This document shows positions 32,285-50,856 of a stretch of DNA of 64,000 bases, in pieces. The stretch is from positions 2,416,416-2,480,415 of the forward strand of contig OZ252007.1 in NCBI GenBank assembly GCA_965247415.1, in the 5' to 3' direction. Within the stretch, counting starts at the first letter, position 1; every line of letters starts with the position of its first letter. A program made the position numbers and the translations under genes. The notes under the pieces were generated by a model that ran no database searches, was not told the origin of the DNA, and saw only the letters and a program-made list of their open reading frames with translations. Source of the stretch: Methylophilaceae bacterium. GTDB lineage: Bacteria; Pseudomonadota; Gammaproteobacteria; Burkholderiales; Methylophilaceae.

Positions 32285-33028
32285 AAAGCTGCCTTTCGTA
32301 GTCAAATGATTAATTGATTAAATAGGCCATAATCAATCAGTTATTCTAATTGGATCGAGTCCAAAATAGCGAGCCAAGCTGTTAGACAGGTTAATAGTAT
32401 ATTTAAAAATTTTATTCTATTTTATTTAGGATAGATTTAATCAATATCCACAAGTTTCATATAAAGCTATTGCCTGCAAGGCTAACAGCAGTTGTATTTA
32501 TAGCCCTCCCGTGTAACATTAGCGGGAAACAATGCTTAGTTATTAAAAACCGTCGTAGGGACATGATCACTAATAATCAATTCAATAATGGGAATTATAT
32601 AAAATGAGTGAAGAAAAATCAGTGGGTAGAATTGAATATGAGAAAAGATTTTGTCTTCTTCTAAAAAATTCTTCAACAGCAATTTGAAGCTGGAAAAATA
32701 AGAATAGCATAGGGATTGGATATAGAATAAAACTTTCTAGCCCTTATGGTATGGATTTGATGGTGAAATTGATCTTGATACTGTTGACGGTGTTTTCAGA
32801 TTAATGGCTCTTTGCATTACCGCAATGCATGATCTTGAAGAGTTAAAAAAGGAGGCGTCCTTAAGCGATATACATAATATGTATTTCAAACTTATCGAAG
32901 ACAGTTTCGGTGAATTTTACAAAATTATGCAAAAGCGAGACATATACACTGTTTTTAATATAGCATTTTTCAACTTATCATTTATAAACCGCTGAATTGC
33001 AAACCTAATAAATAAATTGAATTCTATT

Positions 33029-34111
33029 ATGTATAAAATAAAAAAAATAATACATCAATATGATCATAGGAGAAATCTCGATGCCGCTACCATAGCGCTA
33101 ATGGCAGCATCGAAAGTGAATGATACGTTGTTAATACCTGAGCTTTGTAGCACATTCAAAACAATATTTAATTTAGCCGAGTGTGGTTTTTTTTGGTCAA
33201 ACGAACGTGGTGAGTTTTTAGACGCCTGGTGTACGACACCACATTTTTTAAATTTTGACACTTTAAATTCATGTGCGGCATTTCAAGCGGAAGGAGAGCG
33301 TAATTGGCCGACTTTTACTGAAAATGTATTAGCAGGTCCGCTAGCAGGTTATTTAATACCTTTTCAAAACGAGCGCTTGTATGCTTCAGCACATTTTAAA
33401 AGAGTTTATGAGCCACTTAATGTTAAATTTTTATTAGATGTTGTGTTGCATGACGGGCAAAGGCCATATGGCGCATTTTTAATGATGCGCACTTTAGCTC
33501 AAGGGCAGTTTACTGAAGAAGAATGTGATTTTATTGCGAGTTTGATTCCAACCTTAAATGGTATTTTTAAGGAGGAGCAACCTAATGTTACCTATTCAGA
33601 TAAACTTACTACTGGTTTTTCTGTGCTATCAGAAAATGGTGAAGCTAATTATATCGATTCTGTTGCATCTAGCATTGTTTGGGCGCTGGTTTACGATACG
33701 CCAGGTGCGTTTGCCAACCCTACAGCACCAAATTTAAGTAAGCAATTAGAGGCGTTATGTGCGCCTTATTATGAAAAAGCCCTAGAGGGTGAGGAGATGA
33801 TTTTTTCTATTAAAAATAGATGGGGCTGCTTTAATTTAAAGTTTGAAAGTCCATATTCATCCCGTCAAATTTCAGTTCAGTTGCAAAAGCGCGTTCCGCT
33901 ACGCACTGAAATTATCAATAAGCTATATTTGTTAAAGTTAACGCCTATGCAGCAAATTGTGGCTTACCAATTGGCGCTTAATGGGTCAAGACAAGAAATT
34001 GCAGAGTCACTGGGTGTTTCTATTGAAACTGTTACTACGCACATTAAATCTATTTATAAATTAACAGATACGCAATCAAGTCACGGGCTACTCTTAAAAT
34101 TGATAGGTTAG
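33029..34111 (+). CDS. LuxR/GerE-type HTH transcriptional regulator with unrecognised N-terminal domain
   Basis: The C-terminal ~60 aa are LTPMQQIVAYQLALNGSRQEIAESLGVSIETVTTHIKSIYKLTDTQSSHGLL (LuxR-type HTH). I assign no family to the N-terminal ~290 aa. The start is ATG 33029 or TTG 33017. Confidence 0.75.
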   Translation: MYKIKKIIHQYDHRRNLDAATIALMAASKVNDTLLIPELCSTFKTIFNLAECGFFWSNERGEFLDAWCTTPHFLNFDTLNSCAAFQAEGERNWPTFTENVLAGPLAGYLIPFQNERLYASAHFKRVYEPLNVKFLLDVVLHDGQRPYGAFLMMRTLAQGQFTEEECDFIASLIPTLNGIFKEEQPNVTYSDKLTTGFSVLSENGEANYIDSVASSIVWALVYDTPGAFANPTAPNLSKQLEALCAPYYEKALEGEEMIFSIKNRWGCFNLKFESPYSSRQISVQLQKRVPLRTEIINKLYLLKLTPMQQIVAYQLALNGSRQEIAESLGVSIETVTTHIKSIYKLTDTQSSHGLLLKLIG

Positions 34112-34243
34112 CGTCACAAAAAATTCATACCATATCCCCCATTTAGGGGATATAGGTTTGTGTAAACAATTGTTATAATTTTGTGGTATTTAACAAATAC
34201 ACTTCAAAAAGTTGCGTATCATAAATTTTTAAGGGGCAATAAT

Positions 34244-34981
34244 ATGAAAAAAATTTCTAAATTAACATTGGTTTTATTGATGGCAGTAGGTGTTTTAAGT
34301 TCCGGCGTTGTGAATGCGGCATGTAGTGATGTTACAAGAGCGGCATTGCAAGCTGCAGCTGATGGTGTAGTTACTGGTGCAAGTGGCACAGGTGGTTTTG
34401 GTCTTAATATGTGGGTAACAATGGTCGATGAAACTGGCGCTGTTTGTCATGTTGTAACAACAGGGGATACAGGTAAATTAGCTGGTAACGCTGAATGGCT
34501 AGGTAGTCGTGTGATTTCTGCACAAAAAGCCAATACTGCTAATGCTTTTAGTTTAAATGGTGTTTCAATTTCATCAGGTGCTTTATATGCCGCTGTTCAA
34601 CCAGGTGGAAGTTTATTTGGCTTGCAAGAATCTAATCCAGTAAACGCATCTGTGGCATATTCTGGCTCGCCTAATAATTATGGTAAAGCAAATGACCCAT
34701 TAAAAGGTAAACGTATTGGTGGTGTGAATGTATTTGGTGGTGGAATTGCACTATATAATTCAGCCGGTACAAAAGTAGGTGCTATTGGTGTTTCAGGTGA
34801 TACTTCCTGCACCGACCATGCTTTTGCTTGGAAAGTGCGTGAAACGCTTAATTTAGATACCGCGCAAACAAATGATTTTGAGAAATTAAATCTTACAACT
34901 ACTTTTGCTAATTTGGGCGATCATCCAAATTGTGCTTCAGATACTAATTTAAATAACGCAACAGCATTTGGTTTTAATTAA
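34244..34981 (+). CDS. secreted GlcG/HbpS-like (DUF336) protein
   Basis: Signal peptide MKKISKLTLVLLMAVGVLSSGVVNA. DUF336 pattern is present (MWVTMVDETGAV, SRVISAQKANTANAF, GGGIALYN..GTKVGAIGVSGDTSCTDH). An AAGGGG SD precedes ATG 34244. Confidence 0.7.
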   Translation: MKKISKLTLVLLMAVGVLSSGVVNAACSDVTRAALQAAADGVVTGASGTGGFGLNMWVTMVDETGAVCHVVTTGDTGKLAGNAEWLGSRVISAQKANTANAFSLNGVSISSGALYAAVQPGGSLFGLQESNPVNASVAYSGSPNNYGKANDPLKGKRIGGVNVFGGGIALYNSAGTKVGAIGVSGDTSCTDHAFAWKVRETLNLDTAQTNDFEKLNLTTTFANLGDHPNCASDTNLNNATAFGFN

Positions 34982-35005
34982 CAATCTAGTTTGTTGAGTA
35001 AAAAT

Positions 35006-35035
35006 AAACCTCAGATCTCCTGAGGTTTATTTATA
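35006..35035 (+). terminator. rho-independent terminator
   Basis: AAACCTCAG-ATCTC-CTGAGGTTT is followed by a T-rich tract. It separates the DUF336 gene from the pseudopilin gene. Confidence 0.7.
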
Positions 35036-35093
35036 TGTTCACACTTGCTTATTTTGCGTTTAGAATTAAATCACCGTTTATAACTAATTATGG

Positions 35094-35510
35094 GTGTGTA
35101 TAAAAGTGAAAAGTCAGTCTGGTTTTACTTTATTAGGGTTGTTAGTGGTTATGGTGATTGTTGGTTTGTTATCGGGTTATGTTGGACCTAAATATTTCGC
35201 ACAGTTAGGAATGTCTGAAGTGAAATCAGCAAAAGCACAGCTCAATTCACTCAGAAAAGCATTAGATGTCTATCGACTAGATACAGGCAACTATCCAGAC
35301 CAACAACTCAGATTAAGTGCATTAATAGTTGCACCACAAGGTGTAAATGGATGGCAAGGCCCTTATTTATATAAAGCTGTCCTTAACGACCCATGGGGGC
35401 ACCCTTATATTTATAAAATTCCTGATGAGAAAAGTGAACTGGAAATTATTTCTCTTGGTGCGGATGGTCAGGCTGGCGGAAGTGATGAAAACGCCGATAT
35501 TGTCGAATAA
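35094..35510 (+). CDS. GspG-like major pseudopilin with Gly instead of Glu at mature position +5
   Basis: Prepilin leader and cleavage site (KSQSG/FTLLGLLVV) and a GspG body (YRLDTGNYP, GWQGPYL, DPWGHPYIY, SLGADGQAGG). The codon at +5 is GGG. The start is probably GTG 35106. Confidence 0.8.
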   Translation: MCIKVKSQSGFTLLGLLVVMVIVGLLSGYVGPKYFAQLGMSEVKSAKAQLNSLRKALDVYRLDTGNYPDQQLRLSALIVAPQGVNGWQGPYLYKAVLNDPWGHPYIYKIPDEKSELEIISLGADGQAGGSDENADIVE

Positions 35511-35512
35511 TA

Positions 35513-36730
35513 ATGCAATATCAATTACGTGTTTTGCGCGATGGTAAAGCGCCACAGCAGTTTGAGGTTGATGCAACTTCTTCGGGTGAGGCCATAAAAA
35601 AAGCAGAGCAGCAAGGCCTCACGGTACTTCAAATTAAGCCAGCGCAAACAGGTTTTTTTTCTTTTATTCCCAATTTGCTCACTCAAAAAAGTGGTGTTAG
35701 CAATCAAACTTTTCCATTAATCTTATTTTGCCAAGAATTCCGTGTGTTATTTGATGCGGGATTGGCGGTGATGGAAGTGTTAAATACCTTAATTGACAAA
35801 GAGTCTAATTCTCCAACTAAACAAGTGTTAGAAAATTTACTGCAAGCTGTGCAAGAAGGTAAAACGCTCTCACAAGCCATGGCACTGAATCCGCAGGCTT
35901 TTCCAAGTTTGTTGATTGCAACGGTGAGTGCAGCAGAATCTACAGGAGACTTGTCTGAAGCGCTGATGCGCTATAGCCATTATTTAGAAAGCGTGGATTT
36001 ATTAAAAAAGAAAATTGTCAGCGCAACGCTTTACCCAGCAATTGTGAGTACAGTTGGGGTAGTAGTGTTGATTTTTTTAATTGTTTTTGTGATTCCAAAA
36101 TTCAGTAAAATTTATGAAACCCAAGTTAAAACCGTTTCATTGACCACGCAGTTTTTACTAAAGCTGGGTAATTTCTCACAACACTATGGTTTTTTGATGT
36201 TGGTAATATTTGTGGTGTTAGTTGTAGGGATATCTATCAGTATTGCAAACCCTGAAAACAGAAAACGCTTGACTGAAAAAATGTGGAAAATTCCATACCT
36301 TGGTGAGCATTTACGCTTGTATTACCTAACACGGTTCTATCGCACGTTTGCCATGTTATTAAAAAGTGGTATTCCTGTGATGAATGGTTTAACAATGGTA
36401 GAAAACTTATTAGGCGTGCAGTTAAAAAGTAATCTATTGCATGCAAAAAAATTGATTTCAGAAGGAAAGCCTTTTTCAAATGCACTCCAAACGGCAGGCC
36501 TTACTACGCCAGTAGCGATTCGACTATTTAACGTTGGCGAGCAAACAGGTACGCTGGATTTAATGATGGAACGCGCGGCGACTTTTCATGAAGAGCAAAT
36601 GGTGCGTTGGATAGACCGTTTTACCAAAGTGTTTGAGCCTATGCTGATGGCTTTGATTGGCATTATGATTGGGGGGATTGTGCTCATGCTGTATATGCCA
36701 ATTTTTGAATTAGCTAGTGGTATTGAGTAA
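35513..36730 (+). CDS. GspF/PilC-family inner-membrane platform protein (cluster 1)
   Basis: 405 aa with the duplicated T2SSF domain, 3 TM segments and the conserved C-terminus MLMALIGIMIGGIVLMLYMPIFELASGI. Confidence 0.9.
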   Translation: MQYQLRVLRDGKAPQQFEVDATSSGEAIKKAEQQGLTVLQIKPAQTGFFSFIPNLLTQKSGVSNQTFPLILFCQEFRVLFDAGLAVMEVLNTLIDKESNSPTKQVLENLLQAVQEGKTLSQAMALNPQAFPSLLIATVSAAESTGDLSEALMRYSHYLESVDLLKKKIVSATLYPAIVSTVGVVVLIFLIVFVIPKFSKIYETQVKTVSLTTQFLLKLGNFSQHYGFLMLVIFVVLVVGISISIANPENRKRLTEKMWKIPYLGEHLRLYYLTRFYRTFAMLLKSGIPVMNGLTMVENLLGVQLKSNLLHAKKLISEGKPFSNALQTAGLTTPVAIRLFNVGEQTGTLDLMMERAATFHEEQMVRWIDRFTKVFEPMLMALIGIMIGGIVLMLYMPIFELASGIE

Positions 36731-36738
36731 TTAAGCAA

Positions 36739-38391
36739 ATGACCACTGCACATTTTCAACAGCTTTTTCTACAAGCTCGGACCCTATCAGAAAAAAATGG
36801 TCAACGCGCTATTGAGCAATTGGAAACGCTCTCTCAACTTTCACCCCCGATATTTACTGAGCAATTGGCTACTTTGTTTTCTTACCCTGTTTTATCCTTG
36901 GATGAGATGCAAATTTTGACACCCGATTTTCAGCGAATTAATTTCTCAGAAAGTTTGCAATATGAATGTTTGTTGCTAAAACGAGATGAAACTTACTTAT
37001 TTGTATTTGCTGATGTGTATAAGCAAAGTGTCATTGCTTGGGCGGCAGAGCGCATTCAAACGGCATTTGTCACACATTTAGCGCATCGAGCGGATATTGC
37101 TGCATTCTTGGCTAAGCATGAAGATGAAACACGTGCCATGCAAAGTGCGATGCACCATGTGGGCGTGACTAAGCAAGAGGGTGAAACGAAAGAAGAACTT
37201 TCGCTCAATGTGATTGAAGGGGATATTAGCCCCGTCATTAAACTTGTCCGTTCCACGCTTTATGATGCACTTAAAGCAGAAGCAAGTGACATTCATTTAG
37301 TGACAGCACCTGACGGCTTGGTAATTAAATATCGTTTAGATGGTGTATTAACACAAATTGGTGCAATCAATGAATTGTCATTAGCGGAGCAAGTGGTTTC
37401 CCGTATTAAGGTGATTTCTGAGCTTGATATTACCGAGCAGCGTGTGCCACAAGATGGACGCTTTAGAGCCGTTTATCGTGGTCGTGATGTCGATTTTCGT
37501 GTGTCCGTGATGCCAAGTATTCATGGCGAAGATGTGGTGATTCGGGTTTTGGATAAGCAAACACTGGCTGACCAATCGGTTGGTTTGCGTTTAGATGTGC
37601 TGGGCTTTGATGCTGAAACGATGGCGGTGATGCGTGAGCAGTTTGCCATGCCTTATGGAATGGTGTTAGTCACTGGGCCAACAGGCAGTGGCAAAACCAC
37701 AACACTCTATGCGGCTATTAGTGAAATTAATCGTGGTGACGACAAAATTATCACCATTGAAGACCCTGTAGAGTATGAATTAAAAGGGGTTTTGCAGATT
37801 CCCGTGAATGAGAAAAAGGGTCTGACTTTTGCCCGGGGGTTGCGCTCAATTTTACGTCACGACCCTGACCGCATTATGGTTGGGGAAATTCGAGACAGTG
37901 AAACAGCGCAAATTGCGGTGCAATCTGCGTTAACTGGGCATTTGGTATTTACAACTGTACATGCAAATAATGCTTTTGATGTCATTGGGCGCTTTATAAA
38001 TATGGGTGTTGATCCTTATAGTTTTGTTTCAGCCTTAAATATAGTTGTTGCTCAACGATTGTTGCGTGTGAATTGCCCGCAATGTGCAGAAAAGGTTACT
38101 GCAAATATTCCCTATAAAAATATTGTGATTCCAGCCAGTGCGCAATTAAAACGTGGTAAAGGATGCGGTACTTGTCGTGGCACTGGCTACAAAGGACGGC
38201 GTGCAGTGGCGGAAATTTTAATATTAGATGATGAGTTGCGTGAACTTATCGCCAATCGTGGCTCCATTCGACAAATTAAAGAATTGGCAGCCAAAAAGGG
38301 CACACAATTCTTACATCAATCTGCACTGAACATGGCTTTTGCTGGTGAAACAACGATTGAGGAGGTGCTACGTGTTGCTCCCTTGGTCTAA
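36739..38391 (+). CDS. GspE/PilB-family secretion ATPase (cluster 1)
   Basis: Walker A GPTGSGKTT, Asp box, Walker B (IMVGEIRD), His box (LVFTTVHAN) and a tetracysteine motif (CPQC...GCGTCRGTGYKGR). Confidence 0.95.
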   Translation: MTTAHFQQLFLQARTLSEKNGQRAIEQLETLSQLSPPIFTEQLATLFSYPVLSLDEMQILTPDFQRINFSESLQYECLLLKRDETYLFVFADVYKQSVIAWAAERIQTAFVTHLAHRADIAAFLAKHEDETRAMQSAMHHVGVTKQEGETKEELSLNVIEGDISPVIKLVRSTLYDALKAEASDIHLVTAPDGLVIKYRLDGVLTQIGAINELSLAEQVVSRIKVISELDITEQRVPQDGRFRAVYRGRDVDFRVSVMPSIHGEDVVIRVLDKQTLADQSVGLRLDVLGFDAETMAVMREQFAMPYGMVLVTGPTGSGKTTTLYAAISEINRGDDKIITIEDPVEYELKGVLQIPVNEKKGLTFARGLRSILRHDPDRIMVGEIRDSETAQIAVQSALTGHLVFTTVHANNAFDVIGRFINMGVDPYSFVSALNIVVAQRLLRVNCPQCAEKVTANIPYKNIVIPASAQLKRGKGCGTCRGTGYKGRRAVAEILILDDELRELIANRGSIRQIKELAAKKGTQFLHQSALNMAFAGETTIEEVLRVAPLV

Positions 38392-39148
38392 ACCCTTAAT
38401 CTTAACCATCGCTGCACACAGTATTGCGCTTAAAGATTCAAATAGTAAAGTCCACTTGCTATCTAAGCAAACCACAGATTTTGCGAATATTCCAAATGTA
38501 TTAGAGAAAGTTAAAGCGCTTTTTAAAAGGCAATCTGTTGAGATCATACTTTCAAATCATTTTGTAAGATTTTTAGCTTTACCTTGGCAAGCGCACATTG
38601 TGCAACTACAAGATTGGCAAGCCATTGCGCAACACGCGTTTAAAAAAGAATTTGGTGCGATGGCTAACGACTGGAAAGTGGCCGTGCATTTATATGGATT
38701 TGGTCAGCCTATTTTAGCCACAGCGATGGATAAAAGTGCCATTCATCATCTTAATGAAGTTGCTATGCTGATGGATTTTAAAATTCAATCTATCATCCCC
38801 TTATTAAATAAATGTTGGTCGCAACATTTAACAGAAAAAGATTGGCTGCTTATTGTTGAACCGCAAAGGCTATTATTAGCGCAAATGCAAGCATGTATTT
38901 GCAATCAAATGGTGGTTGATATGCCACCATCAGGGCAAGAGCAACAACATGCAACACAATTAGTACAGCGCAGCTTGATGCAAACGCCCGAGACTTTGCG
39001 CCCAAGTCGCGTGCTGACTTACGTAACAAGTGAAATACAGGAAAATTGGCAAAAAAATGGGGATTCCATCATTAAGCTGGTAAATCCAGTGGTGAATAAT
39101 CAACCGCATGCAGTTTGGATGGCAAATTTCTTGGATGACAAATTTTAA
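38372..39148 (+). CDS. PilM/GspL-like assembly protein (cluster 1), family assignment tentative
   Basis: The GTG start overlaps the end of gspE and is preceded by GAGGAGG. It is positional and sequence paralog of 48125-48982 and occupies the PilM/GspL slot before three single-TM proteins. Confidence 0.4.
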   Translation: MLLPWSKPLILTIAAHSIALKDSNSKVHLLSKQTTDFANIPNVLEKVKALFKRQSVEIILSNHFVRFLALPWQAHIVQLQDWQAIAQHAFKKEFGAMANDWKVAVHLYGFGQPILATAMDKSAIHHLNEVAMLMDFKIQSIIPLLNKCWSQHLTEKDWLLIVEPQRLLLAQMQACICNQMVVDMPPSGQEQQHATQLVQRSLMQTPETLRPSRVLTYVTSEIQENWQKNGDSIIKLVNPVVNNQPHAVWMANFLDDKF

Positions 39149-39165
39149 GTCATCAAGCTAATGGA

Positions 39166-39693
39166 TTGAAAGTGAATACAATGCAAAAACCTAATTTTAA
39201 TTTTGTGACTCATTCAGTTTTGAAAAAATCATCGATTGATTTTATCTTAGTTGCATTGGCAATATTATTAGCGGCGATTTTATTTATAGTTTATCAATTT
39301 AAATTAAGTGCATTCAATGATCTTCAAGCAAAAAAAGATGCACAGCCTGTCATCAGGACAAAGCCAATTAATCCACAATTCGCAGAACATTTACAACATT
39401 TTAAGATTGCTCAACATACCCTTAATGTGCCTTGGATGGAAACTTTTAACGCGCTAGAGTTGGTAAAGCAAGCGCATCCAAATGTGCAATTTTTGTCCGT
39501 AGAGCCTAATCTGAACCGTAATGAAATTAAAATTAAAGTGAAGGCAGAAGCATTTGATGAAGTGACCGCTTTACTAGAGTCGTTACGAAAATCACCACTG
39601 TTTAATGAAGCGGAATTAGTGAGTCAGCATATTGAAACCACCGATGAGGAAGTGGTTACTGTATTTGATATACATTTAGGGTGGAAAATATGA
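39166..39693 (+). CDS. PilN-like single-pass membrane protein (cluster 1)
   Basis: A short cytoplasmic N-terminus, one TM (IDFILVALAILLAAILFIVY), then a coiled coil and a small periplasmic domain. The start is uncertain (TTG 39166 or ATG 39181). Confidence 0.45.
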   Translation: MKVNTMQKPNFNFVTHSVLKKSSIDFILVALAILLAAILFIVYQFKLSAFNDLQAKKDAQPVIRTKPINPQFAEHLQHFKIAQHTLNVPWMETFNALELVKQAHPNVQFLSVEPNLNRNEIKIKVKAEAFDEVTALLESLRKSPLFNEAELVSQHIETTDEEVVTVFDIHLGWKI

Positions 39694-40241
39694 GTTTCTT
39701 TTCTATTGAATTAAGTGCAAAAATTAAATGGCAATTAATCCGATTTTTTGACCAAGTTGGTTTGTTAGGTCGCGCCGCTTTATTATTAGTTTTTCTTTTA
39801 ACGGTGCTATTTTTTATCCGTTGGCAGGCATTGCAAAACAAAATAAATACCATGCATCTTGAGGTGCCCGGAATCACAAAAAATACTGATGCATATGTAG
39901 ATCAAGAAAAAATGCTCGCAGATGCGCTCGTCAAATTTCCCAAAGTAGATGATAAAGCGCAAACTTTTAATAGATTGATGCAACTTGCCAATGCGCAAGA
40001 GCTTACGTTAGATGCAGTGACTTATAAAACAAAACATAGCGAAAGCACAGCACCATTAAGTCAAACAATGGTGGATTTTACTTTGATTGCAACTTATCCA
40101 GAAGTGCATGATTTTATTAACAAAGTCATGGTAAGTATGCCTTTTGTGGCGATAGAGCAGCTCAGTTTTACTCGTATTAATAATGAAGATGACGTGATTG
40201 AAGCGCGTATAAAACTACTCTTTAACTTTGTGCTGAATTGA
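39690..40241 (+). CDS. PilO/GspM-like single-pass membrane protein (cluster 1)
   Basis: ATGA overlap with the upstream stop. It has a TM (GRAALLLVFLLTVLFFI) followed by a ~130-aa periplasmic domain. Confidence 0.45.
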   Translation: MSFFSIELSAKIKWQLIRFFDQVGLLGRAALLLVFLLTVLFFIRWQALQNKINTMHLEVPGITKNTDAYVDQEKMLADALVKFPKVDDKAQTFNRLMQLANAQELTLDAVTYKTKHSESTAPLSQTMVDFTLIATYPEVHDFINKVMVSMPFVAIEQLSFTRINNEDDVIEARIKLLFNFVLN

Positions 40242-40246
40242 GTTTA

Positions 40247-40783
40247 ATGACGATGAAAAAAAGCAATGCATGGATATTGTGGGGAGGTTTATTCTTGACG
40301 CTGATATTGACTTGGCGCATGAGCACTCATGATGCTTCAGAGCAGACCGTTTTGCCTATCAGAATATTGGCGCAAACTAACATACCATTGCAAATGCGAG
40401 ATATTCAACCTTTTCAGCAAAGTATTGGTGAGAATGAAAAGTTAACTTTAAGAAAGTCTTATGAAAGCATATCGGATTTATTTGCATTAGCAGAAGTAAA
40501 GGAAGAACCTGCAGAAACAAACCGTAAAAAGTCACAAGTGCAACCTATCATAGTGCCACCTTTGCCTTTTAAATATATCGGGCGCTGGAAAGACCAAACA
40601 CAAACGCTGGTGCTTCTTAGTATGAATGATGAAATTATTTCTGCAAAAGTGGGTGATACCATTTTTAATAAATATCAATTACAAAATGTGACTGAAAATG
40701 CGCAAGTATTAACTTTGCAGTTTTTAAATCAACCTTTTCACCAAACACAGATACTTCAAGTAGGGAAAGCTCAAGATGAATAA
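40247..40783 (+). CDS. PilP-like periplasmic protein (cluster 1)
   Basis: An N-terminal anchor, a linker, then PLPFKYIGRW...TLVLLSMNDEIISAKVGDTIFNKYQLQNV, which resembles the PilP beta-domain pattern. Its end overlaps the secretin start. Confidence 0.45.
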   Translation: MTMKKSNAWILWGGLFLTLILTWRMSTHDASEQTVLPIRILAQTNIPLQMRDIQPFQQSIGENEKLTLRKSYESISDLFALAEVKEEPAETNRKKSQVQPIIVPPLPFKYIGRWKDQTQTLVLLSMNDEIISAKVGDTIFNKYQLQNVTENAQVLTLQFLNQPFHQTQILQVGKAQDE

Positions 40784-42698
40784 AGCCACGCTCATAAAAA
40801 CAGGCTTTTATTTTTTAGTCATTCAATTAGGCATGCATTTAACTGCTTGCGAAACAATGACGGCTAAATTACACACTCAAAAATACGATGTAAATCAACT
40901 AGAGAATCCAAAAGAAGCTAAGCAGATTCCAGAAAAAATTCAAAATATCAATGCGCGTGAAGCTAAAATTCAGCAGTTGATTCAAGATGCGGAGCATGCA
41001 AAGCGTGAAGGAAATTTTGACGAAGCGGCGCGGTTTTATGATGAACTTCTCGCTTATGACTCCAATAATTTGAAAGCGCAAGATGGTTTGTTGCAGTTAA
41101 GTTTAGAGAAAAAACATGCAGAATTATTGGCAGATGCAGAAAACATTTTATCTGAGTCCACAGAAAAAAATCGCTTAGAAAAAATAGAAGCTGCACTTAC
41201 TAAACTGCATAAAATATTATTAGAAAATGCGCAGCACCCTAAAGCGTTGGCGTTGAATCAGCATTTATTAGCGGAACAATTGCAATTAATGCAGGCTAAA
41301 AATGTTAAAAAATTGGCGTTTAACCAACCAGTGACGATGGAATTTAGAGATGTAAATATCAAAATGATTTTTGAGTCACTTTCTAAAATGGCAAAAATTA
41401 ATTTCATTTTAGATAAAGATATTCCAAGTGATCAAAAAGCAACCATTTTTGTAAAGTCGGTTGAGTTTAATGATGCGCTAGATTTATTACTACAAACAAA
41501 TCAATTAGAAAAAAAAGTTCTCAGCGATAACTCTGCCATTATTTATGTGAATGACCCGCTTCGCCAAAGAGAATATAAAGATCTTTCAGTGCGGAGCTAC
41601 ACGTTGGATTACGCAGATGCAAAACAAATGAGTACGATTTTGCGTTCCATGTTAAATATTCGGAATATGGAAGTAGACCCACGTTTAAATGTGTTGCTGA
41701 TTAAAGATTCACCTGAAATTTTACAGTTAGCAGAAAAAATTATTTATGCGCAAGATAAACCAGATCCAGAAGTCTTACTTGAATTGCAAGTGATGGAGAT
41801 TAAGCGCTCATACTTACAAAATCTAGGGGTGAATATGCCCACAGGCGTGAATGTGCCTGTGCCTAGTTCAGGTATTCTCACGGTTAAAGACTTAAGTAAT
41901 GTCACGGGAAGTTCCCTCATGGTCAATGGCGTACCAGGGTTAGTGTTTAATGCCACTAATGGCGATGTGAACTTGCTCGCAAATCCACGTATTCGGGTTA
42001 AGAATAAAGAAGTTGCAAAAATTCATATTGGTGAAAAAGTGCCTGTGTTTACTTCAAATGTCGCATCTACGGGGGTGACATCGCAGTCAATTCAATATAT
42101 TGATGCAGGTCTTAAATTAGAGGTTGAACCTTCAGTAAGCTCAACGGATGATGTCACGATTAAAATCAATCTTAACGTGGGCTCAATCGGCGATAAAGTG
42201 ATCGCCTCAAGTGGTGGCAATCAAAGTGTTGCGTTTAGAGTGGGGACAAGATTAACCAGTACACAGTTGCGTTTGCACGATGGCGAAACGCAATTGCTAG
42301 CAGGGTTAATAGATGACCAAGACCGAAAAAATGTGAGTGGCATTCCAGGGCTATCAAATATTCCTTTGTTAGGAAAGCTTTTTTCTAGTCAAACCGATGA
42401 CAAAGTAAAAACAGAAATTGTACTTTCCATTACGCCGCATATTATTCGGCCAAGAACCCCACAACAAGCACATGAGTCTGAAATTTGGGTCGGTTCAGAA
42501 GGGCGCGCAGGTAAACGTTCAGCAAGTCCGAGATTTGAAAATGGCGCATCACCTTTTATTGTGCCGCAACCGCCAAAACCTGCGCAAACAGCACCAAAAT
42601 CTGAAGAACCATCGAATATTAATATTCCATTACCAACAGGCTTTTCATTAGGAACAGGTTTAACGCCACCGACGAAAGAAGGCGCGGATAAGCAGTAG
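40776..42698 (+). CDS. secretin (GspD/PilQ/MshL superfamily) lipoprotein with N-terminal TPR-like domain (cluster 1)
   Basis: Lipobox (MHLTAC), a TPR/helical region of ~170 aa, an N0-like domain (VTMEFRDVNIKMIFESLSKMAKINFILDKDI) and a secretin core (NPRIRVKNKEVAKIHIGEKVPV; LRLHDGETQLLAGLIDD...SGIPGLSNIPLLGKLF...IVLSITPHII). The C-terminal tail is P/Q-rich. Confidence 0.9.
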   Translation: MNKATLIKTGFYFLVIQLGMHLTACETMTAKLHTQKYDVNQLENPKEAKQIPEKIQNINAREAKIQQLIQDAEHAKREGNFDEAARFYDELLAYDSNNLKAQDGLLQLSLEKKHAELLADAENILSESTEKNRLEKIEAALTKLHKILLENAQHPKALALNQHLLAEQLQLMQAKNVKKLAFNQPVTMEFRDVNIKMIFESLSKMAKINFILDKDIPSDQKATIFVKSVEFNDALDLLLQTNQLEKKVLSDNSAIIYVNDPLRQREYKDLSVRSYTLDYADAKQMSTILRSMLNIRNMEVDPRLNVLLIKDSPEILQLAEKIIYAQDKPDPEVLLELQVMEIKRSYLQNLGVNMPTGVNVPVPSSGILTVKDLSNVTGSSLMVNGVPGLVFNATNGDVNLLANPRIRVKNKEVAKIHIGEKVPVFTSNVASTGVTSQSIQYIDAGLKLEVEPSVSSTDDVTIKINLNVGSIGDKVIASSGGNQSVAFRVGTRLTSTQLRLHDGETQLLAGLIDDQDRKNVSGIPGLSNIPLLGKLFSSQTDDKVKTEIVLSITPHIIRPRTPQQAHESEIWVGSEGRAGKRSASPRFENGASPFIVPQPPKPAQTAPKSEEPSNINIPLPTGFSLGTGLTPPTKEGADKQ

Positions 42699-42700
42699 CC

Positions 42701-43222
42701 ATGTTCAATAAACGTTCAACGAAAGGTTTCTCATATGTGGAAATGGTATTTGTTGTTGCCATGTTGGCGCTCATGGCCGCTGTTGCAACGCCTTATTTGG
42801 AAAAAAATATTCAACGCAAAAAAGAAACTGAGCTTAAACAAAATTTGCGTGAAATTAGAATGGCAATTGATGCTTATAAAGCTGCATTTGATGCGGGAAA
42901 GTTTGCAAAAGGCATTTCTTATAGTGGGTACCCAAAAAATTTAGATGATTTAGTGAATGGCGTAGATGATGTCACAGACCCACAAAAAAAGAAGCTATTT
43001 TTTTTAAGAAAAATACCCGCAGACCCGATGTTTTCAGATGCGCAATTACGTGAATCTCAGAATGATGGCGCAAATGCTGACCCTATTAACCCCGCAGATA
43101 CATGGGGAAAACGTAGTTATGAGAGTGATGCGGATAATCCTAAAGAAGGTCGTGATGTGTATGACATTTTTTCATTAAGCCCTGATGTGGGTGTGAATGG
43201 CATACCATACGCAAAATGGTAA
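42701..43222 (+). CDS. GspG-like pseudopilin A (cluster 1)
   Basis: Prepilin motif KG/FSYVEMVFVV with Glu at +5 and a GspG-like body (YPKNLDDLV, IPADPM). The C-terminus is GIPYAKW. Confidence 0.8.
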   Translation: MFNKRSTKGFSYVEMVFVVAMLALMAAVATPYLEKNIQRKKETELKQNLREIRMAIDAYKAAFDAGKFAKGISYSGYPKNLDDLVNGVDDVTDPQKKKLFFLRKIPADPMFSDAQLRESQNDGANADPINPADTWGKRSYESDADNPKEGRDVYDIFSLSPDVGVNGIPYAKW

Positions 43223-43224
43223 AT

Positions 43225-43605
43225 ATGCATAAAAATGTAATACTTCGTGGCTTTACGATGATAGAACTCATGATTGTGATGGCAATGATTGCAACCATCA
43301 TCGCAATTGCGATGCCACGCTACTTTGACGGCTTGCACCGCACCAAAGAAATGGCATTGAAGCAAAATTTAAAAGAAATGCGTGAGGCAATTGGCCATTA
43401 TCATGAAGATAAAGGACAATATCCAGCAACGTTAGACACGCTGGTTCTGGAGCGTTACTTGCGTTTTATTCCAGTTGATCCCATCACACAGAGTGCAGAA
43501 ACTTGGCAAATTGTAGAGATGTCACAAGGCCAACGCGGTGTTTATGACGTGCAAAGTGGTTCACCCGAGAATGCAGACAGCGGTGTTCCTTATAATAGTT
43601 GGTAA
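43225..43605 (+). CDS. GspG-like pseudopilin B (cluster 1)
   Basis: Prepilin motif RG/FTMIELMIVM with Glu at +5, YPATLDTLV, IPVDPIT and the C-terminus GVPYNSW. An alternative ATG is at 43216. Confidence 0.8.
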   Translation: MHKNVILRGFTMIELMIVMAMIATIIAIAMPRYFDGLHRTKEMALKQNLKEMREAIGHYHEDKGQYPATLDTLVLERYLRFIPVDPITQSAETWQIVEMSQGQRGVYDVQSGSPENADSGVPYNSW

Positions 43606-43608
43606 TGT

Positions 43609-44169
43609 ATGCGTGCTTCTTTGAAAACAAAGCAAATTCAAACCCAAAGAGGCTTTGCTTATATTGTTTTACTTTTTTTAGTGGCCGCTATTTCTGTCAC
43701 CATTGCAATTGTTTCGCAAGATGAAGCAACCTTGCAAATGCGTGAGAAAGAGCGTGATTGGTTGTTTATTGGGCATCAATACCAGCAAGCTATCAAGCGT
43801 TACTATGAAAAATCTCCTGATGGCATAAAAACCTTACCAAATAACATAGATGATTTGGTGTTAGATAGTCGCTTCATAAAGCCAGTCCATCATTTACGCA
43901 AGCCATATTTAGACCCCTTAACAGGAAAAGAATGGGCTTTGATTAGAAACGAAGAAGGCTTTCTTATTGGCGTAAATAGTGAATCGGCCAATCCAGTTTT
44001 TTTGCAACAAATGGTATCGCAGTTAATAGAGTCTTCCAGTGCTATTTCGCAGCATACAGATGTGAAATTTGTATTTAAAGTAGATGATGCAGAGTCTGAA
44101 GATTCAAATGAAAATCAAGAGATCGATAATTTAGATAGCGTTGAATCCGAAGCTATTGTTAGCCAGTAA
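43609..44169 (+). CDS. pseudopilin-like protein lacking Glu5 (cluster 1)
   Basis: RG/FAYIVLLFLVAAI has a prepilin-like hydrophobic N-terminus with Val at +5. The C-terminal tail is acidic. Confidence 0.5.
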   Translation: MRASLKTKQIQTQRGFAYIVLLFLVAAISVTIAIVSQDEATLQMREKERDWLFIGHQYQQAIKRYYEKSPDGIKTLPNNIDDLVLDSRFIKPVHHLRKPYLDPLTGKEWALIRNEEGFLIGVNSESANPVFLQQMVSQLIESSSAISQHTDVKFVFKVDDAESEDSNENQEIDNLDSVESEAIVSQ

Positions 44170-44653: not shown

Positions 44654-44682
44654 CGTGAGTTCGAATCTCACCTCTTCCGCCA
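44654..44682 (+). repeat. attR core: orphan copy of the 3' 29 nt of tRNA-Ser
   Basis: Exact match to 12081-12109. No remaining tRNA body lies upstream of it. Confidence 0.9.
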
Positions 44683-45247
44683 ATTTTATTCAATACAATC
44701 AATGAGTTATATATTTTTTACTTTAGTTTTGTACAATATTTGTACTAAAAAGTAAATTGTTAACTTTTTCGATTTCTTTTGACTTGTCAGCTGAATCAAT
44801 CCATTTTGCATAAACCTACAAGTAACTGTAGTCAGGGTCTGTCACACCTTGCTTGTGATACAAGATAATTGTGGCAATTATTCCCGCGATAAAAAATAAA
44901 GCAATCTAAAGCTTAGTGATGAATAAGCTTTCAATTTTTTTATAAAAAAGTCTTTTTATTTAATTACCTTTAGAAATGGTTTCTGAGTTGAATTGCTTCT
45001 GAGGATTTTTTTTCTTGCAAAGGTATCTTAATGCAAAGACATCTTAATAAAGTCTACTTGAAAAATTAGAAATAAATTCCAAGGTTTGGCTACTCTGATA
45101 TATTTTTTTTAAGTTAATCTTTTCAAGATTCACCTCATAAACACTATTGCTGGCTGTCACAATTCTGCAATCTCTTTGTCATCATTAATCGTTAATATTG
45201 GCTGGTTAAAAGCAACATGTTTGTTGTTGACGATGGGTGAAATGTTC

Positions 45248-48144: not shown

Positions 48145-48982
48145 CCGACTGATGTCGCGCAATCAATTGAGCCTGTTAATCAGTGCAAATGAAATTACTC
48201 TGCAACACATCAAGGGTTGGTTAAGCCCGCGTGTGGCGCTTCAAGCACAAGTTAATTATGCGTCTGCTGATGGCGATAAATGGCGAGAAGCACTTCTTCA
48301 AATAGACACATTATTTTCAAAAATAAAAGTACCCGCAAAAACCCCGTTAAAAATTGTGCTATCCAGTGAATGCTTAAGATTTTTAACCTTGCCAGCGCAA
48401 CACGCTTTTTTGCCAGAGGCTGAAAAAAACGCTTATGCAAAGGCTTTTTATGATGAAGTGTATGGTGAGCGCGTGAATGATTGGGAAATTAGGCAAGATG
48501 ATGCGCCGCCCCATTTACCATCCATTTCCGTTGCGATGGATAAATTCTTGCTGGAGCAGCTTATAAAAATAGCAGAAAAATATCAGCTCATATTAACCAC
48601 GGTTGAGCCTTATGTGATGACAGCGGTGAATCATTTAAAAAAAGAAATTGGTTGCACGGATGGTTTTTTAGCGATGATTGAAAATAATCGACTGGTGTTA
48701 ATTCAATTGCAAGGTGGGCATTTAATAAATTTAAAAATCGAGGCGATTGGACAAGAATGGCAAACCAGCTTGCATCAAATGTTGTTGCGTGAAAGTTTGC
48801 TAGCCGCAGAAAAAGCAGGCGCTCAAGATAACATTTTAGAAAAACCAACTGTATTGTTATATGCACCACACATTACAAACGCAAAAATCCAAAAAATTGC
48901 TGATTGGCCCATCACCATGATTGGTCAACAGGGACAATCAGTTGTCACGCATACGAATGCCTTGATGGAGGCCTTGGTGTGA
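48125..48982 (+). CDS. PilM/GspL-like assembly protein (cluster 2), tentative
   Basis: The GTG start overlaps the end of gspE and is preceded by AGGAG. It occupies the same position as 38372-39148 and has a similar N-terminus. Confidence 0.4.
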   Translation: MSLLSPNRLMSRNQLSLLISANEITLQHIKGWLSPRVALQAQVNYASADGDKWREALLQIDTLFSKIKVPAKTPLKIVLSSECLRFLTLPAQHAFLPEAEKNAYAKAFYDEVYGERVNDWEIRQDDAPPHLPSISVAMDKFLLEQLIKIAEKYQLILTTVEPYVMTAVNHLKKEIGCTDGFLAMIENNRLVLIQLQGGHLINLKIEAIGQEWQTSLHQMLLRESLLAAEKAGAQDNILEKPTVLLYAPHITNAKIQKIADWPITMIGQQGQSVVTHTNALMEALV

Positions 48983-50138: not shown

Positions 50139-50159
50139 TGATGAATCTACTAATAATAG

Positions 50160-50831: not shown

Positions 50832-50856
50832 TAAAAAATCATTCAAAGTAGAATTT

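What the first reader, a model, noticed from the sequence alone, without database searches (positions are those of the whole stretch)
33029..44169. Cluster 1: complete non-canonical type-IV-filament / T2SS-like machine carried on the island
The gene order is LuxR-type regulator, secreted DUF336 protein (with its own terminator), GspG-like, GspF, GspE, a PilM/GspL-like protein, three single-TM PilN/O/P-like proteins, secretin, then three pseudopilin-like genes. It mixes T2SS-type pseudopilins (GspG fold motifs) with a T4P/MSH-like alignment module. It has a lipoprotein secretin bearing its own TPR domain. It lacks recognisable GspC, GspH-K minor pseudopilins, a prepilin peptidase and a retraction ATPase. 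Nearly all junctions are overlaps (ATGA, or GTG overlapping TGA), indicating one tightly coupled operon. It does not fit the textbook gsp, pil or msh gene orders and it is mobile-element cargo.
Basis: partly seen in the sequence, partly recalled or inferred. Interest (0 to 1): 0.75.

Follow-up and report, generated by a model that had tools for sequence, protein, structure and literature searches.

The report
Unorthodox type II secretion-like gene cluster
The genes are real and form a complete secretion machine of a widespread but unstudied type already noted in Ralstonia as an "unorthodox type II secretion system"; here it sits on a tRNA-Ser island beside an exported small-molecule-binding protein, and its main filament subunit carries a probably disabling mutation.

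Summary
Window 33017-44169 encodes, on one strand and tightly packed, a LuxR-type regulator, an exported DUF336/GlcG/HbpS protein, GspG, a GspF-like platform, a GspE/PilB-like ATPase, four small proteins, a secretin and three pseudopilins.

I assigned the four small proteins by structure and profile. They are a cytoplasmic GspL/PilM domain, PilN, GspM/PilO, and a PilP/GspC-HR-like protein. The GspC and GspL roles are therefore filled.

The cluster fits no curated class. E, F and D fall below every NCBIfam equivalog cut-off; only GspG passes.

It is not unique. The same 11-gene order occurs in 12 Methylophilaceae-type loci, in Jeongeupia, Rubrivivax and Janthinobacterium, and in the Ralstonia solanacearum megaplasmid, where the literature calls it an "unorthodox T2SS". 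The GspL-like protein has 2,265 cluster representatives. No functional study was found.

A 29-bp repeat of the tRNA-Ser 3' end brackets 12110-44682, which supports island carriage. A gspG-less paralogous cluster follows at 45176-54395.

The most likely function is dedicated protein secretion. Neighbouring cargo candidates vary by lineage: DUF336 protein, chitinase, metalloproteases.

One caveat applies to this genome. Its GspG has Gly in place of the invariant Glu+5 and Leu in place of an invariant Pro, unlike a 99%-identical sibling, so the machine may be impaired.

The parts
33017..34111 (+). LuxR-type regulator: C-terminal HTH and an N-terminal ~300 aa of unknown fold. An alternative start lies at 33029.
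   Evidence: GerE E 2e-4, below the cut-off. Present in the 99%-identical sibling contig L026. Not orthologous to the ~208-aa LuxR genes that follow the cluster in other loci; only the HTH is similar.
34244..34981 (+). Exported DUF336/GlcG/HbpS-family protein (245 aa, Sec signal peptide). Candidate cargo or periplasmic partner.
   Evidence: PF03928 E 2e-9. Lies directly upstream of gspG in 12 of 12 type-1 loci examined. Best solved relative by sequence is EfgA, 6bws, E 7.8e-6. More than 8000 homologues at 58-76% identity.
35002..35032 (+). Terminator-like hairpin after the DUF336 gene. A promoter-like site follows at 35038-35066.
   Evidence: dG -16.8 kcal/mol, z -5.3, no shuffle as stable. 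TTCACA-17-TAGAAT, 10 of 12 matches.
35094..35510 (+). Major pseudopilin GspG. It carries Gly instead of the invariant Glu at mature position +5 (codon 35136-35138, GGG) and Leu instead of the invariant Pro of the P-x-D-P-W motif.
   Evidence: TIGR01710 138.7 bits, above the cut-off. hhalign against E. coli GspG 99.9%. Substitutions shown.
35513..36730 (+). Inner-membrane platform protein (GspF/PilC family).
   Evidence: PF00482, two copies. GspF 280 bits, below the 424 cut-off.
36739..38391 (+). Assembly ATPase (GspE/PilB family) with an N1E/MshEN-type N-domain, Walker A and a tetracysteine motif.
   Evidence: PF00437 E 1e-124. GspE 481 and PilB 459 bits, both below cut-offs. PDB sequences: PilB 347 against GspE 333 bits. 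Motifs.
38372..39148 (+). Cytoplasmic GspL/PilM-type actin-like domain (258 aa); the start overlaps the ATPase gene by 20 nt.
   Evidence: No Pfam hit. AF2 model pLDDT 85.6, pTM 0.84. Foldseek: PilM 5eox E 7e-12; cyto-EpsL 1yf5 and GspL 4pht TMt 0.62-0.63. Fused to PilN in relatives.
39166..39693 (+). PilN-like bitopic protein, equivalent to the TM plus periplasmic half of GspL.
   Evidence: PF05137 E 1.6e-7. hhalign against HofN 47%.
39681..40241 (+). GspM/PilO-like bitopic protein.
   Evidence: T2SSM_b E 0.0024 and XpsM-type GspM E 5.6e-5, both below cut-offs. The cluster 2 paralogue hits PilO at E 7e-4.
40238..40783 (+). PilP/GspC-HR-like protein: N-terminal TM helix, Pro-rich linker, C-terminal beta domain.
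   Evidence: No Pfam hit. Conserved PPLPFKYxGR motif. AF2 beta domain pLDDT 73-88. The top 11 Foldseek hits are PilP or PulC/GspC HR, TMt up to 0.71, E 0.03-0.4. The profile's best PDB hit is PilP 2ivw, E 3.9.
40776..42698 (+). Lipoprotein secretin: lipobox LTAC, TPR-like helical region, STN/N0, one Secretin_N and the secretin core.
42701..43222 (+). GspG-fold pseudopilin paralogue psA (Glu+5 present); the most conserved small subunit of the family.
   Evidence: TIGR01710 E 4e-10, below the cut-off. hhalign against GspG 97.6% over 103 columns. Alignment A7 has 59% column identity.
43216..43605 (+). GspG-fold pseudopilin paralogue psB (Glu+5 present).
   Evidence: N_methyl; TIGR01710 E 1e-11. 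hhalign against GspG 98.6%.
43609..44169 (+). Pseudopilin-like protein psC with a class III-type leader but no Glu+5 (as in GspK).
   Evidence: Alignment A6. Leader motifs. Best hhalign match is the GspK N-terminus at 53%, which is weak.
12081..12109 (+). 3' end of tRNA-Ser(UGA), gene 12020-12109: left copy of the 29-bp direct repeat (attL-like).
44654..44682 (+). Right copy of the 29-bp repeat (attR-like). The island 12110-44682 ends 485 bp after the cluster.
   Evidence: Exact match; 0 expected in shuffles.
45176..54395 (+). Paralogous second cluster (F2-E2-L2-N2-M2-P2-D2-psA2-psB2-psC2) just outside the island, without a gspG.

Best explanation
Cluster 1 is a self-contained type II secretion-like (pseudopilus) machine. 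It belongs to the family known from Ralstonia solanacearum genomes as the 'unorthodox T2SS'.

Proposed mechanism (inferred from homology with T2SS and T4aP parts):
- The hexameric ATPase E1 docks through its N-domain on the cytoplasmic GspL-type protein L1.
- L1 is tethered to the membrane by the PilN-like protein. The two are one polypeptide in most relatives.
- The PilN-like and GspM/PilO-like proteins form the periplasmic alignment pair.
- The membrane-anchored PilP/GspC-HR-like protein links them to the N0 domain of the secretin.
- The secretin is a self-piloting lipoprotein with an N-terminal TPR module. Together with the lipid anchor, this presumably replaces a separate pilotin.
- On the GspF-like platform, GspG is polymerised into a short pseudopilus. 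Priming or capping is done by three GspG-derived paralogues, one lacking Glu+5, instead of GspH-K.
- The pseudopilus pushes folded periplasmic cargo through the secretin.
- A prepilin peptidase must be supplied from elsewhere in the genome.

The cargo is probably encoded next door and differs between lineages. In Methylophilaceae-type organisms, including this window, the best candidate is the exported DUF336/EfgA-like protein.

In this genome the cluster arrived on, or became part of, a 32.6-kb tRNA-Ser island. Its GspG carries E+5G and P-to-L changes at invariant positions, so this copy may be crippled.
For: Parts list and domain assignments:
- Pfam and NCBIfam hits.
- Secretin lipobox.
- L1 fold matches cyto-GspL and PilM. 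L-N fusions occur in relatives.
- P1 beta domain matches PilP and the GspC HR domain.
- G, psA and psB are GspG-fold proteins.
- The ATPase motifs are intact.

Family membership:
- Invariant order G-F-E-L-N-M-P-D-psA-psB-psC in 16 loci and in L022/L023.
- The Ralstonia OE1-1 megaplasmid has gspG-F-E, four hypothetical genes, a TPR secretin and three pseudopilins. This matches the published description (PMC5080846).
- L and P profiles hit the Ralstonia hypothetical genes at E 2.6e-7 to 1.8e-15 and 8.8e-25.
- The L family has 2,265 representatives.

Evidence for a secretion role:
- A GspG-type major subunit with the C-terminal SLGADGxxGG...NADI loop.
- No retraction ATPase in the cluster.
- Adjacent genes encode exported proteins or enzymes that vary by lineage: the DUF336 protein in 12 of 12 type-1 loci; a GH18+CBM5/12 chitinase directly upstream of gspG in Jeongeupia; an M4 peptidase directly upstream in Janthinobacterium; an M10 peptidase downstream in L001.
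- A differently ordered non-canonical T2SS-like cluster in Shewanella vesiculosa needs its secretin to deliver the neighbouring cargo P49 (PMC6971210).

Island.

GspG substitutions.
Against: - No experiment exists on any member of this family. Secretion rather than pilus display is inferred.
- The secretin and alignment module score closer to T4aP parts.
- The DUF336 gene has its own terminator-like hairpin. It also occurs without any such cluster next to it in Methylomonas, so the link may be regulatory or coincidental rather than cargo and machine.
- The P1 structural matches are individually not significant (E 0.03-0.4) and come from a shallow-alignment model (pLDDT 64 overall).
- GspM/PilO and psC assignments are weak.
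- The TPR signal in D1 itself is below Pfam cut-offs.
- No integrase was found at either island end.
- MacSyFinder and a proper phylogeny could not be run.
Confidence: 0.6

Rival explanations
1. It builds a surface type IV pilus (T4aP/MSH-like adhesin or uptake fibre) rather than a periplasmic pseudopilus that secretes proteins.
For: The secretin scores higher against PilQ (99 and 89 bits) than GspD (73 bits) and has the STN plus single N-domain layout of PilQ. The PilN, PilO and PilP-like parts match Hof/Pil references better than Gsp ones. E2 scores PilB above GspE. A GGDEF-EAL gene lies upstream at 30001-31953.
Against: The major subunit is an equivalog-level GspG of 138 aa, and all other pilin-like genes are GspG derivatives. 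There is no PilT or PilU, no PilA-type pilin, no PilY1/PilC-type adhesin and no AMIN domains. The ATPase N-domain lacks the MshE c-di-GMP motif. Variable exported enzymes lie next to the cluster in other lineages.
Confidence: 0.2
2. In this particular genome cluster 1 is a non-functional or decaying copy, crippled by the GspG E+5G and P-to-L substitutions. Any activity depends on the GspG-like paralogues or on cluster 2.
For: Glu+5 and the Pro are invariant in 18 relatives, including E. coli GspG and a 99.1%-identical sibling contig. GspG shows 4 non-synonymous against 2 synonymous differences from the sibling, while the ATPase fragment has 0 against 5. Glu+5 is required for assembly of PulG-type pseudopilins (established knowledge, not tested here).
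Against: All eleven machine genes are intact and of normal length. Two GspG-fold paralogues keep Glu+5. The change is a single A-to-G transition and could be a sequencing error or a laboratory-acquired mutation.
Confidence: 0.35
3. It is a canonical, already characterised system (orthodox T2SS or MSH pilus) that only looks odd because of divergence.
For: GspG passes the equivalog cut-off. Homologues or analogues of GspC, L, M, D, E and F are all present.
Against: E, F and D fail the GspE, GspF, GspD, PilB, PilC, PilQ and MshL cut-offs by wide margins. There are no GspH, I, J, K, N, O or S genes, no PDZ domain in the GspC-like protein, and one N-domain instead of N1-N3. The gene order differs from gsp and msh. 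Ralstonia carries this type in addition to an orthodox 12-gene T2SS (PMC5080846).
Confidence: 0.03
4. The DUF336 protein is not the cargo. It is an independently transcribed periplasmic protein that happens to sit upstream, and the machine exports other proteins encoded elsewhere.
For: The gene has its own hairpin and a downstream promoter-like site. The same protein family stands alone in Methylomonas and is far more abundant and more conserved than the machine's specific parts.
Against: It is adjacent and co-oriented in 12 of 12 type-1 loci despite different flanking genes. It is exported (signal peptide, four Cys).
Confidence: 0.4

Closest known systems
'Unorthodox T2SS' clusters of the Ralstonia solanacearum species complex (chromosomal and megaplasmid; Li et al. 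2016, PMC5080846; PMC6428702)
   Same: Identical gene order: gspG-F-E, four 'hypothetical' genes, a TPR-bearing secretin, then three pseudopilins. BLAST homology of G (55%), F (35%), E (57%), D (40%), psA (44%), psB (45%) and psC (35%). Profile homology of the first and fourth hypothetical genes. The window's cluster 2 is closer still: F 44%, E 56%, D 42%, psA 51%, psB 52%, psC 40%.
   Different: Cluster 1 belongs to a separate subtype found in Methylophilaceae-type genomes, with a DUF336 gene upstream and often a fused L-N protein. The Ralstonia clusters have only been catalogued, so no function is known to transfer.
Canonical T2SS (Gsp/Pul/Eps/Xcp)
   Same: GspG major pseudopilin, GspE/F-type motor and platform, cytoplasmic GspL-type domain that should bind the ATPase N-domain, GspM-like partner, an HR-type domain next to the secretin, and no retraction ATPase.
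   Different: GspL is split as in PilM/PilN. The GspC equivalent lacks a PDZ or coiled-coil domain. The secretin is PilQ-like, with one N-domain plus TPR and a lipid anchor. GspH, I, J and K are replaced by three GspG paralogues. There is no GspO, N, S, A or B. E, F and D are below the equivalog cut-offs.
T4aP alignment subcomplex PilMNOPQ (and E. coli HofMNOPQ)
   Same: Five-gene module in the same order (M-N-O-P-Q equivalents) with matching topologies. PilN Pfam hit, PilP-like fold, PilQ-like secretin scores.
   Different: The L1 domain is the size of cyto-GspL (TMt 0.62-0.63 against 0.42 for PilM). The P protein is TM-anchored rather than a lipoprotein. The secretin has TPR instead of AMIN domains. 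The module is embedded between the motor and pseudopilin genes. There is no PilA, PilT or PilY1.
HxcQ-type liposecretin of the Pseudomonas aeruginosa Hxc T2SS (recalled from the literature, not tested here)
   Same: A secretin that is itself a lipoprotein and so may not need a separate pilotin; part of a second, specialised T2SS with a neighbouring dedicated substrate.
   Different: Hxc otherwise has the full GspC-M gene set, and no TPR module is reported.
Non-canonical T2SS-like translocon of Shewanella vesiculosa HM13 (PMC6971210)
   Same: A second, reduced T2SS-like cluster with four 'hypothetical' genes before the secretin and the cargo gene (P49) next to it. Secretin disruption mislocalises the cargo. 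This is the only functional precedent found for such reduced clusters.
   Different: Different order (G-E-F, then pseudopilins including a GspK-like protein, then the hypothetical genes, then D). It is gammaproteobacterial and vesicle-associated.

Membership tests
Canonical T2SS (Gsp) | Major pseudopilin GspG | tested here: met
   TIGR01710 138.7 bits against a cut-off of 88.85. hhalign 99.9% to E. coli GspG. Glu+5 is replaced by Gly in this genome.
Canonical T2SS (Gsp) | GspE, GspF and GspD at equivalog level | tested here: not met
   GspE 481 against 630; GspF 280 against 424; GspD 148.5 against 351 bits.
Canonical T2SS (Gsp) | Minor pseudopilins GspH, I, J and K | tested here: not met
   The three extra pilin-like genes match GspG over the globular domain (97.6% and 98.6%) or only the N-terminal helix of GspK (53%). 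There is no H, I or J match beyond the N-terminal helix.
Canonical T2SS (Gsp) | GspC with HR plus PDZ or coiled-coil domain; GspL as a single bitopic protein; GspM | tested here: inconclusive
   An HR/PilP-like beta domain is present but there is no PDZ. The GspL cytoplasmic fold is present but split from its TM and periplasmic half here, and fused in relatives. The GspM signal is weak.
Canonical T2SS (Gsp) | Prepilin peptidase GspO/PilD available | not testable with these tools
   None in the 64-kb window. The rest of the genome is not available.
Type IVa pilus | PilB, PilC and PilQ at equivalog or subfamily level, and a PilT retraction ATPase | tested here: not met
   PilB 459.5 against 675.65; PilC 209 against 700; PilQ 158.7 against 284. 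No PilT-type gene lies in the window.
Type IVa pilus | PilMNOP alignment module next to the secretin | tested here: met
   PilM/GspL fold, PilN Pfam hit, PilO/GspM weak, PilP-like fold, in that order upstream of the secretin.
MSH pilus | MshL secretin; MshE with an N-terminal c-di-GMP-binding motif; mshIJKLMNEGF order | tested here: not met
   MshL 92 against 250 bits. No RLGxx(L/V/I)(L/V/I)xxG motif in E1 or E2. The gene order is different.
'Unorthodox T2SS' of Ralstonia solanacearum | About 10-kb cluster with seven recognisable gsp-type genes and four hypothetical genes between gspE and gspD | tested here: met
   Published description in PMC5080846. Locus L017 shows the same order. The window cluster has the same order.
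'Unorthodox T2SS' of Ralstonia solanacearum | Sequence homology of each component, including the hypothetical genes | tested here: met
   BLAST finds G, F, E, D, psA, psB and psC for cluster 1, plus N and M for cluster 2. HMM profiles of L and P that excluded Ralstonia hit its first and fourth hypothetical genes at E 1.8e-15 and 8.8e-25.
tRNA-integrated genomic island | Direct repeat of the tRNA 3' end flanking the insert | tested here: met
   29-bp exact repeat at 12081-12109 and 44654-44682; 0 expected by chance.
tRNA-integrated genomic island | Integrase gene at an island end | tested here: not met
   No integrase-like ORF or remnant at 12110-12960 or 44170-44700. Only an IS3 transposase at 28532-29766.

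The most novel reading that the evidence does not exclude
In obligate methylotrophs this machine may be a dedicated exporter for a conserved, exported EfgA-like DUF336 protein. EfgA is the cytoplasmic formaldehyde sensor of Methylorubrum and is the closest solved relative of this protein. Exporting such a protein would place a small-molecule (formaldehyde, aldehyde or haem) binding or sensing protein in the periplasm, on the cell surface or in the medium. That would be a new link between one-carbon metabolism and a T2SS-like system. It would also be the first cargo assigned to the whole 'unorthodox T2SS' family, whose pseudopilus tip is built from GspG paralogues rather than GspH-K.
Probability: 0.15. 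Interest if true: 0.7.

Novelty: new member of a known kind. Interest (0 to 1): 0.45.

Why it matters
The family is common. The L protein has thousands of 50%-identity clusters, spread across Betaproteobacteria and including the plant pathogen Ralstonia. Yet it has no assigned function, no class in the usual T2SS/T4P/MSH scheme, and four of its eleven genes are still annotated 'hypothetical'.

This analysis assigns those four genes to cyto-GspL/PilM, PilN, GspM/PilO and PilP/GspC-HR. Relatives carry the L and N parts either fused or split, which gives a living intermediate between GspL and PilM-PilN.

The analysis also nominates lineage-specific neighbouring cargos: the DUF336 protein, a chitinase and metalloproteases. 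That makes the family directly testable.

For this particular genome the practical message is caution. The cluster is island-borne and intact in gene content, but its major pseudopilin carries changes at two invariant positions.

Tried and rejected
1. Methylotenera mobilis lead. The 'unique Type II secretion / pilus genomic island' of M. mobilis JLW8 (mmol_1380-1409, strongly methanol-induced; PMC3728764) looked like a direct precedent. The supplementary tables show it is a Tad/Flp locus (CpaB, TadE, Flp pilin, A24 peptidase), so it is not this system. The two older papers it cites could not be read.

2. Sequence-profile searches of the L and P families against PDB sequences gave nothing significant. 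The psC profile gave only pilin N-terminal helices. Structure prediction was needed.

L1 was modelled with 9 sequences and P1 with only 4, so the P1 model is weak outside its beta domain.

4. An exact look-up of the ATPase found no contig. Cluster look-ups gave no names, so the organism could not be identified beyond 'relatives are Methylotenera/Methylophilaceae MAGs'.

5. I searched for a gspG remnant belonging to cluster 2 and found none.

6. I searched for an integrase remnant at the island ends and found none.

7. The MshE-type c-di-GMP motif is absent from both ATPases.

8. The LuxR gene was tested as a conserved partner. The window's LuxR is not orthologous to the LuxR genes downstream of the cluster in other loci.

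9. Phylogenetic placement of E and D against reference T2SS, T4aP, MSH, T4bP and Tad sets, and MacSyFinder classification, could not be done. HMM cut-offs and PDB bit scores were used as a substitute.

Full report
**1. Observation**

The window carries 13 co-oriented ORFs between 33017 and 44169.

| Coordinates | Assignment | Evidence |
|---|---|---|
| 33017-34111 | LuxR-type HTH protein | weak GerE hit |
| ORF 34181-34981 (probable start 34244) | DUF336/HbpS-like protein with a Sec signal peptide | PF03928 E 2e-9 |
| 35094-35510 | GspG | TIGR01710, 138.7 bits, cut-off 88.85 |
| 35513-36730 | GspF-family platform | Pfam T2SSF |
| 36739-38391 | GspE/PilB-family ATPase | Pfam T2SSE |
| 38372-39148 | no Pfam hit | see section 2 |
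| 39166-39693 | PilN | Pfam PilN |
| 39681-40241 | GspM/PilO | weak hits |
| 40238-40783 | no Pfam hit | see section 2 |
| 40776-42698 | secretin | STN + Secretin_N + Secretin |
| 42701-44169 | three pilin-like proteins | see section 2 |

From gspG to the last gene, every junction is either an overlap or a gap of at most 32 bp.

A stable hairpin follows the DUF336 gene (dG -16.8 kcal/mol, z -5.3). A promoter-like site precedes gspG. The DUF336 gene is therefore probably a separate transcription unit.

There is no prepilin peptidase, no PilT-type ATPase and no GspH-K orthologue in the cluster or anywhere in the window.

**2. The unassigned proteins**

*The 258-aa protein after the ATPase.*
- It has only nine word-indexed homologues.
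- It gave a confident AlphaFold model (pLDDT 85.6, pTM 0.84).
- Its best structural matches are PilM (E 7e-12) and the cytoplasmic domains of EpsL/GspL (E about 1e-10).
- It matches GspL in size (TMt 0.62-0.63 against 0.42 for PilM).
- In most relatives this protein is fused to the following PilN-like protein, giving a ~435-aa polypeptide with the architecture of GspL. In the window the two are separate, as in PilM/PilN.

*The protein just upstream of the secretin.*
- It has an N-terminal TM helix, a Pro-rich linker and a conserved C-terminal domain with the motif PPLPFKYxGR...GD..Y.V.
- A shallow-alignment model gives that domain pLDDT 73-88.
- Its eleven best PDB matches are all PilP or the HR domain of PulC/GspC (TMt up to 0.71).
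- The individual E-values are 0.03-0.4, so none is significant alone. The assignment rests on convergence with the profile hints (PilP 2ivw; HofP), the topology and the gene position.

*The pilin-like proteins.*
- psA and psB are GspG-fold paralogues (hhalign 97.6% and 98.6% over the globular domain).
- psC has a class III-type leader but no Glu+5, as in GspK. Its assignment remains weak.

*The secretin.*
- It has a lipobox (LTAC), conserved across the family.
- It has a TPR region. The signal is sub-threshold in D1, but above Pfam cut-offs at the same position in the paralogue D2 and in the Ralstonia homologue.

**3. Classification**

- E, F and D miss every NCBIfam equivalog or subfamily cut-off for GspE, PilB, GspF, PilC, GspD, PilQ and MshL.
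- Against solved structures, E1 scores PilB 347 and GspE 333 bits. D1 scores PilQ 99 and 89 against GspD 73.
- The ATPase keeps Walker A and the tetracysteine motif but lacks the MshE c-di-GMP motif.

The cluster is therefore a mosaic by similarity: a T2SS-type filament, a T4aP-type alignment module and secretin, and a motor in between. MacSyFinder could not be run.

**4. It is a family, and a known one**

Local BLAST mapping shows the invariant order G-F-E-L-N-M-P-D-psA-psB-psC in all 16 loci first collected and in further loci. Two subtypes exist.

- *Type 1* (= cluster 1) is found in Methylotenera/Methylophilaceae MAGs. It always has the DUF336 gene directly upstream.
- *Type 2* (= a second cluster in this window, 45176-54395) is found in Burkholderiales, Rubrivivax, Jeongeupia and Janthinobacterium, and on Ralstonia solanacearum megaplasmids.

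The Ralstonia literature describes exactly this. It reports 'unorthodox' T2SSs with seven core genes and four hypothetical genes between gspE and gspD, present in addition to the orthodox 12-gene system (PMC5080846; PMC6428702).

Profiles of the L and P families built without Ralstonia sequences hit the first and fourth hypothetical genes of the Ralstonia cluster (E 1.8e-15 and 8.8e-25).

An exhaustive profile search finds 2,265 50%-identity clusters of the L protein (1,284 at E<=1e-10).

I found no functional study of this family. The nearest functional precedent is a differently ordered reduced T2SS-like cluster in Shewanella vesiculosa. Its secretin is needed to deliver the neighbouring cargo P49 (PMC6971210).

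**5. Function**

The case for secretion is inferential. It rests on three points:
- an equivalog-level GspG with the typical C-terminal loop;
- no retraction ATPase or adhesin genes;
- neighbouring genes for exported proteins that change with lineage.

| Lineage | Neighbouring gene |
|---|---|
| Type-1 loci (12 of 12) | DUF336 protein upstream of gspG |
| Jeongeupia (chitinolytic) | GH18 + CBM5/12 chitinase immediately upstream of gspG |
| Janthinobacterium | M4 metallopeptidase immediately upstream |
| L001 | M10 peptidase downstream |

*The DUF336 protein.*
- It is exported and highly conserved (58-76% identity in more than 8000 hits).
- Its closest solved relative by sequence is EfgA, the formaldehyde sensor of Methylorubrum (E 7.8e-6; PMC8153426).
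- By eye, the K, S and D residues of the EfgA pocket align with AQK, GVSG and TD in the window protein. These residues are widely conserved in DUF336 proteins, so this does not discriminate.

*Points against a strict cargo relationship.*
- The gene has its own terminator-like hairpin.
- In Methylomonas the orthologue stands alone.

**6. Island**

The 3' 29 bp of tRNA-Ser(UGA) (12081-12109) recur exactly at 44654-44682, with 0 expected by chance. The repeat delimits a 32.6-kb segment that ends 485 bp after cluster 1.

The segment also carries an IS3 element, a GGDEF-EAL gene, redox genes and two MNIO/DUF2063 pairs. No integrase or remnant was found.

In other genomes the type-1 cluster sits in different places:
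- between housekeeping genes: queC and rpsP, or gluQ and DEAD-box helicases;
- next to a tRNA-Pro/Arg/His array, in one case with integrase and Abi genes inserted.

The family therefore moves around, but island carriage is specific to this genome. Cluster 2 begins just outside the right repeat and has no gspG of its own.

**7. A caveat on 'complete'**

The window's GspG reads GFTLLG, where all 18 relatives read GFTL[LI]E. The relatives include E. coli GspG and a 99.1%-identical metagenomic sibling contig. The change is a single GAG-to-GGG transition at 35136-35138.

A second substitution replaces the invariant Pro of the P-x-D-P-W motif.

Against the sibling, gspG has 4 non-synonymous and 2 synonymous differences. 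The adjacent ATPase fragment has 0 and 5.

Glu+5 is required for assembly of type IV pilins and pseudopilins (established knowledge). Unless this is a sequencing error, the major subunit of this copy is likely impaired.

**8. Verdict**

- The system is a real, non-textbook T2SS-like machine. It is a new member, with its own methylotroph-associated subtype, of a widespread and already catalogued but uncharacterised family.
- Interest is moderate. It comes from the testable cargo hypotheses, the fused and split GspL/PilMN forms, and the GspG-paralogue minor pseudopilins, rather than from uniqueness.

Noticed in passing
window 45176-54395: A second, paralogous ten-gene cluster (F2-E2-L2-N2-M2-P2-D2-psA2-psB2-psC2) starts just outside the island's right repeat. 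Identities to cluster 1 are E 53%, F 41% and D 38%. It is closer to the Ralstonia, Janthinobacterium and Jeongeupia type. It has no gspG of its own and no remnant of one.
   Followed up: partly
window 35136-35138 and the Pro codon of the P-x-D-P-W motif in gspG: GspG has Gly instead of the invariant Glu+5 and Leu instead of an invariant Pro. A 99.1%-identical sibling contig (L026, Logan SRR31776080) has the canonical residues.
   Followed up: yes
window 12081-12109 and 44654-44682; also 12152-12171 and 44554-44573: An exact 29-bp repeat of the tRNA-Ser 3' end delimits a 32.6-kb island without a recognisable integrase. A second exact 20-bp repeat (TTTGGGCTAAATTTGGGCTA) lies just inside each end and is unexplained; it may be an arm-type site.
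   Followed up: partly
window 23907-25962 and 15749-17846 (minus strand): There are two MbnB/TglH/ChrH-family (MNIO, PF05114) plus DUF2063 gene pairs inside the island. One pair has a Cys-rich ORF with a signal peptide and 39-nt tandem repeats (25612-25962). The other has a DoxX gene. They resemble bufferin-type RiPP loci (own knowledge, not tested).
   Followed up: partly
window 28532-29766: An IS3-family element (orfA plus an rve-domain orfB) lies inside the island, immediately upstream of a 4HB_MCP-GGDEF-EAL gene (30001-31953).
   Followed up: partly
window 54431-60190: Downstream of cluster 2 lie an SLT lytic transglycosylase (minus strand), a LuxR/GerE regulator (55424-56275), a DsbC-type isomerase (56360-57124), a PEP-CTERM protein (57680-58525) and a 501-aa exported protein without Pfam hits. 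A link of these to cluster 2 was not examined.
   Followed up: no
loci L001, L003-L009 versus window, L002, L010, L022, L023: The cytoplasmic GspL-like protein and the PilN-like protein are one fused ORF (~432-445 aa) in some close relatives and two ORFs in others. Fusion or fission has therefore happened recently within one subtype.
   Followed up: partly
L019-L021 (Methylomonas genomes): A 67%-identical orthologue of the exported DUF336 protein sits alone between pgpA and a HEAT-repeat gene, with no T2SS-like cluster nearby. This protein family is conserved across beta- and gammaproteobacterial methylotrophs.
   Followed up: partly
L018 (Janthinobacterium lividum plasmid NZ_CP139977.1): In this member gspG lies at the 3' end of the cluster, after the three pseudopilin genes, and an M4 metallopeptidase gene precedes gspF. 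The position of gspG is therefore not fixed in the family.
   Followed up: no
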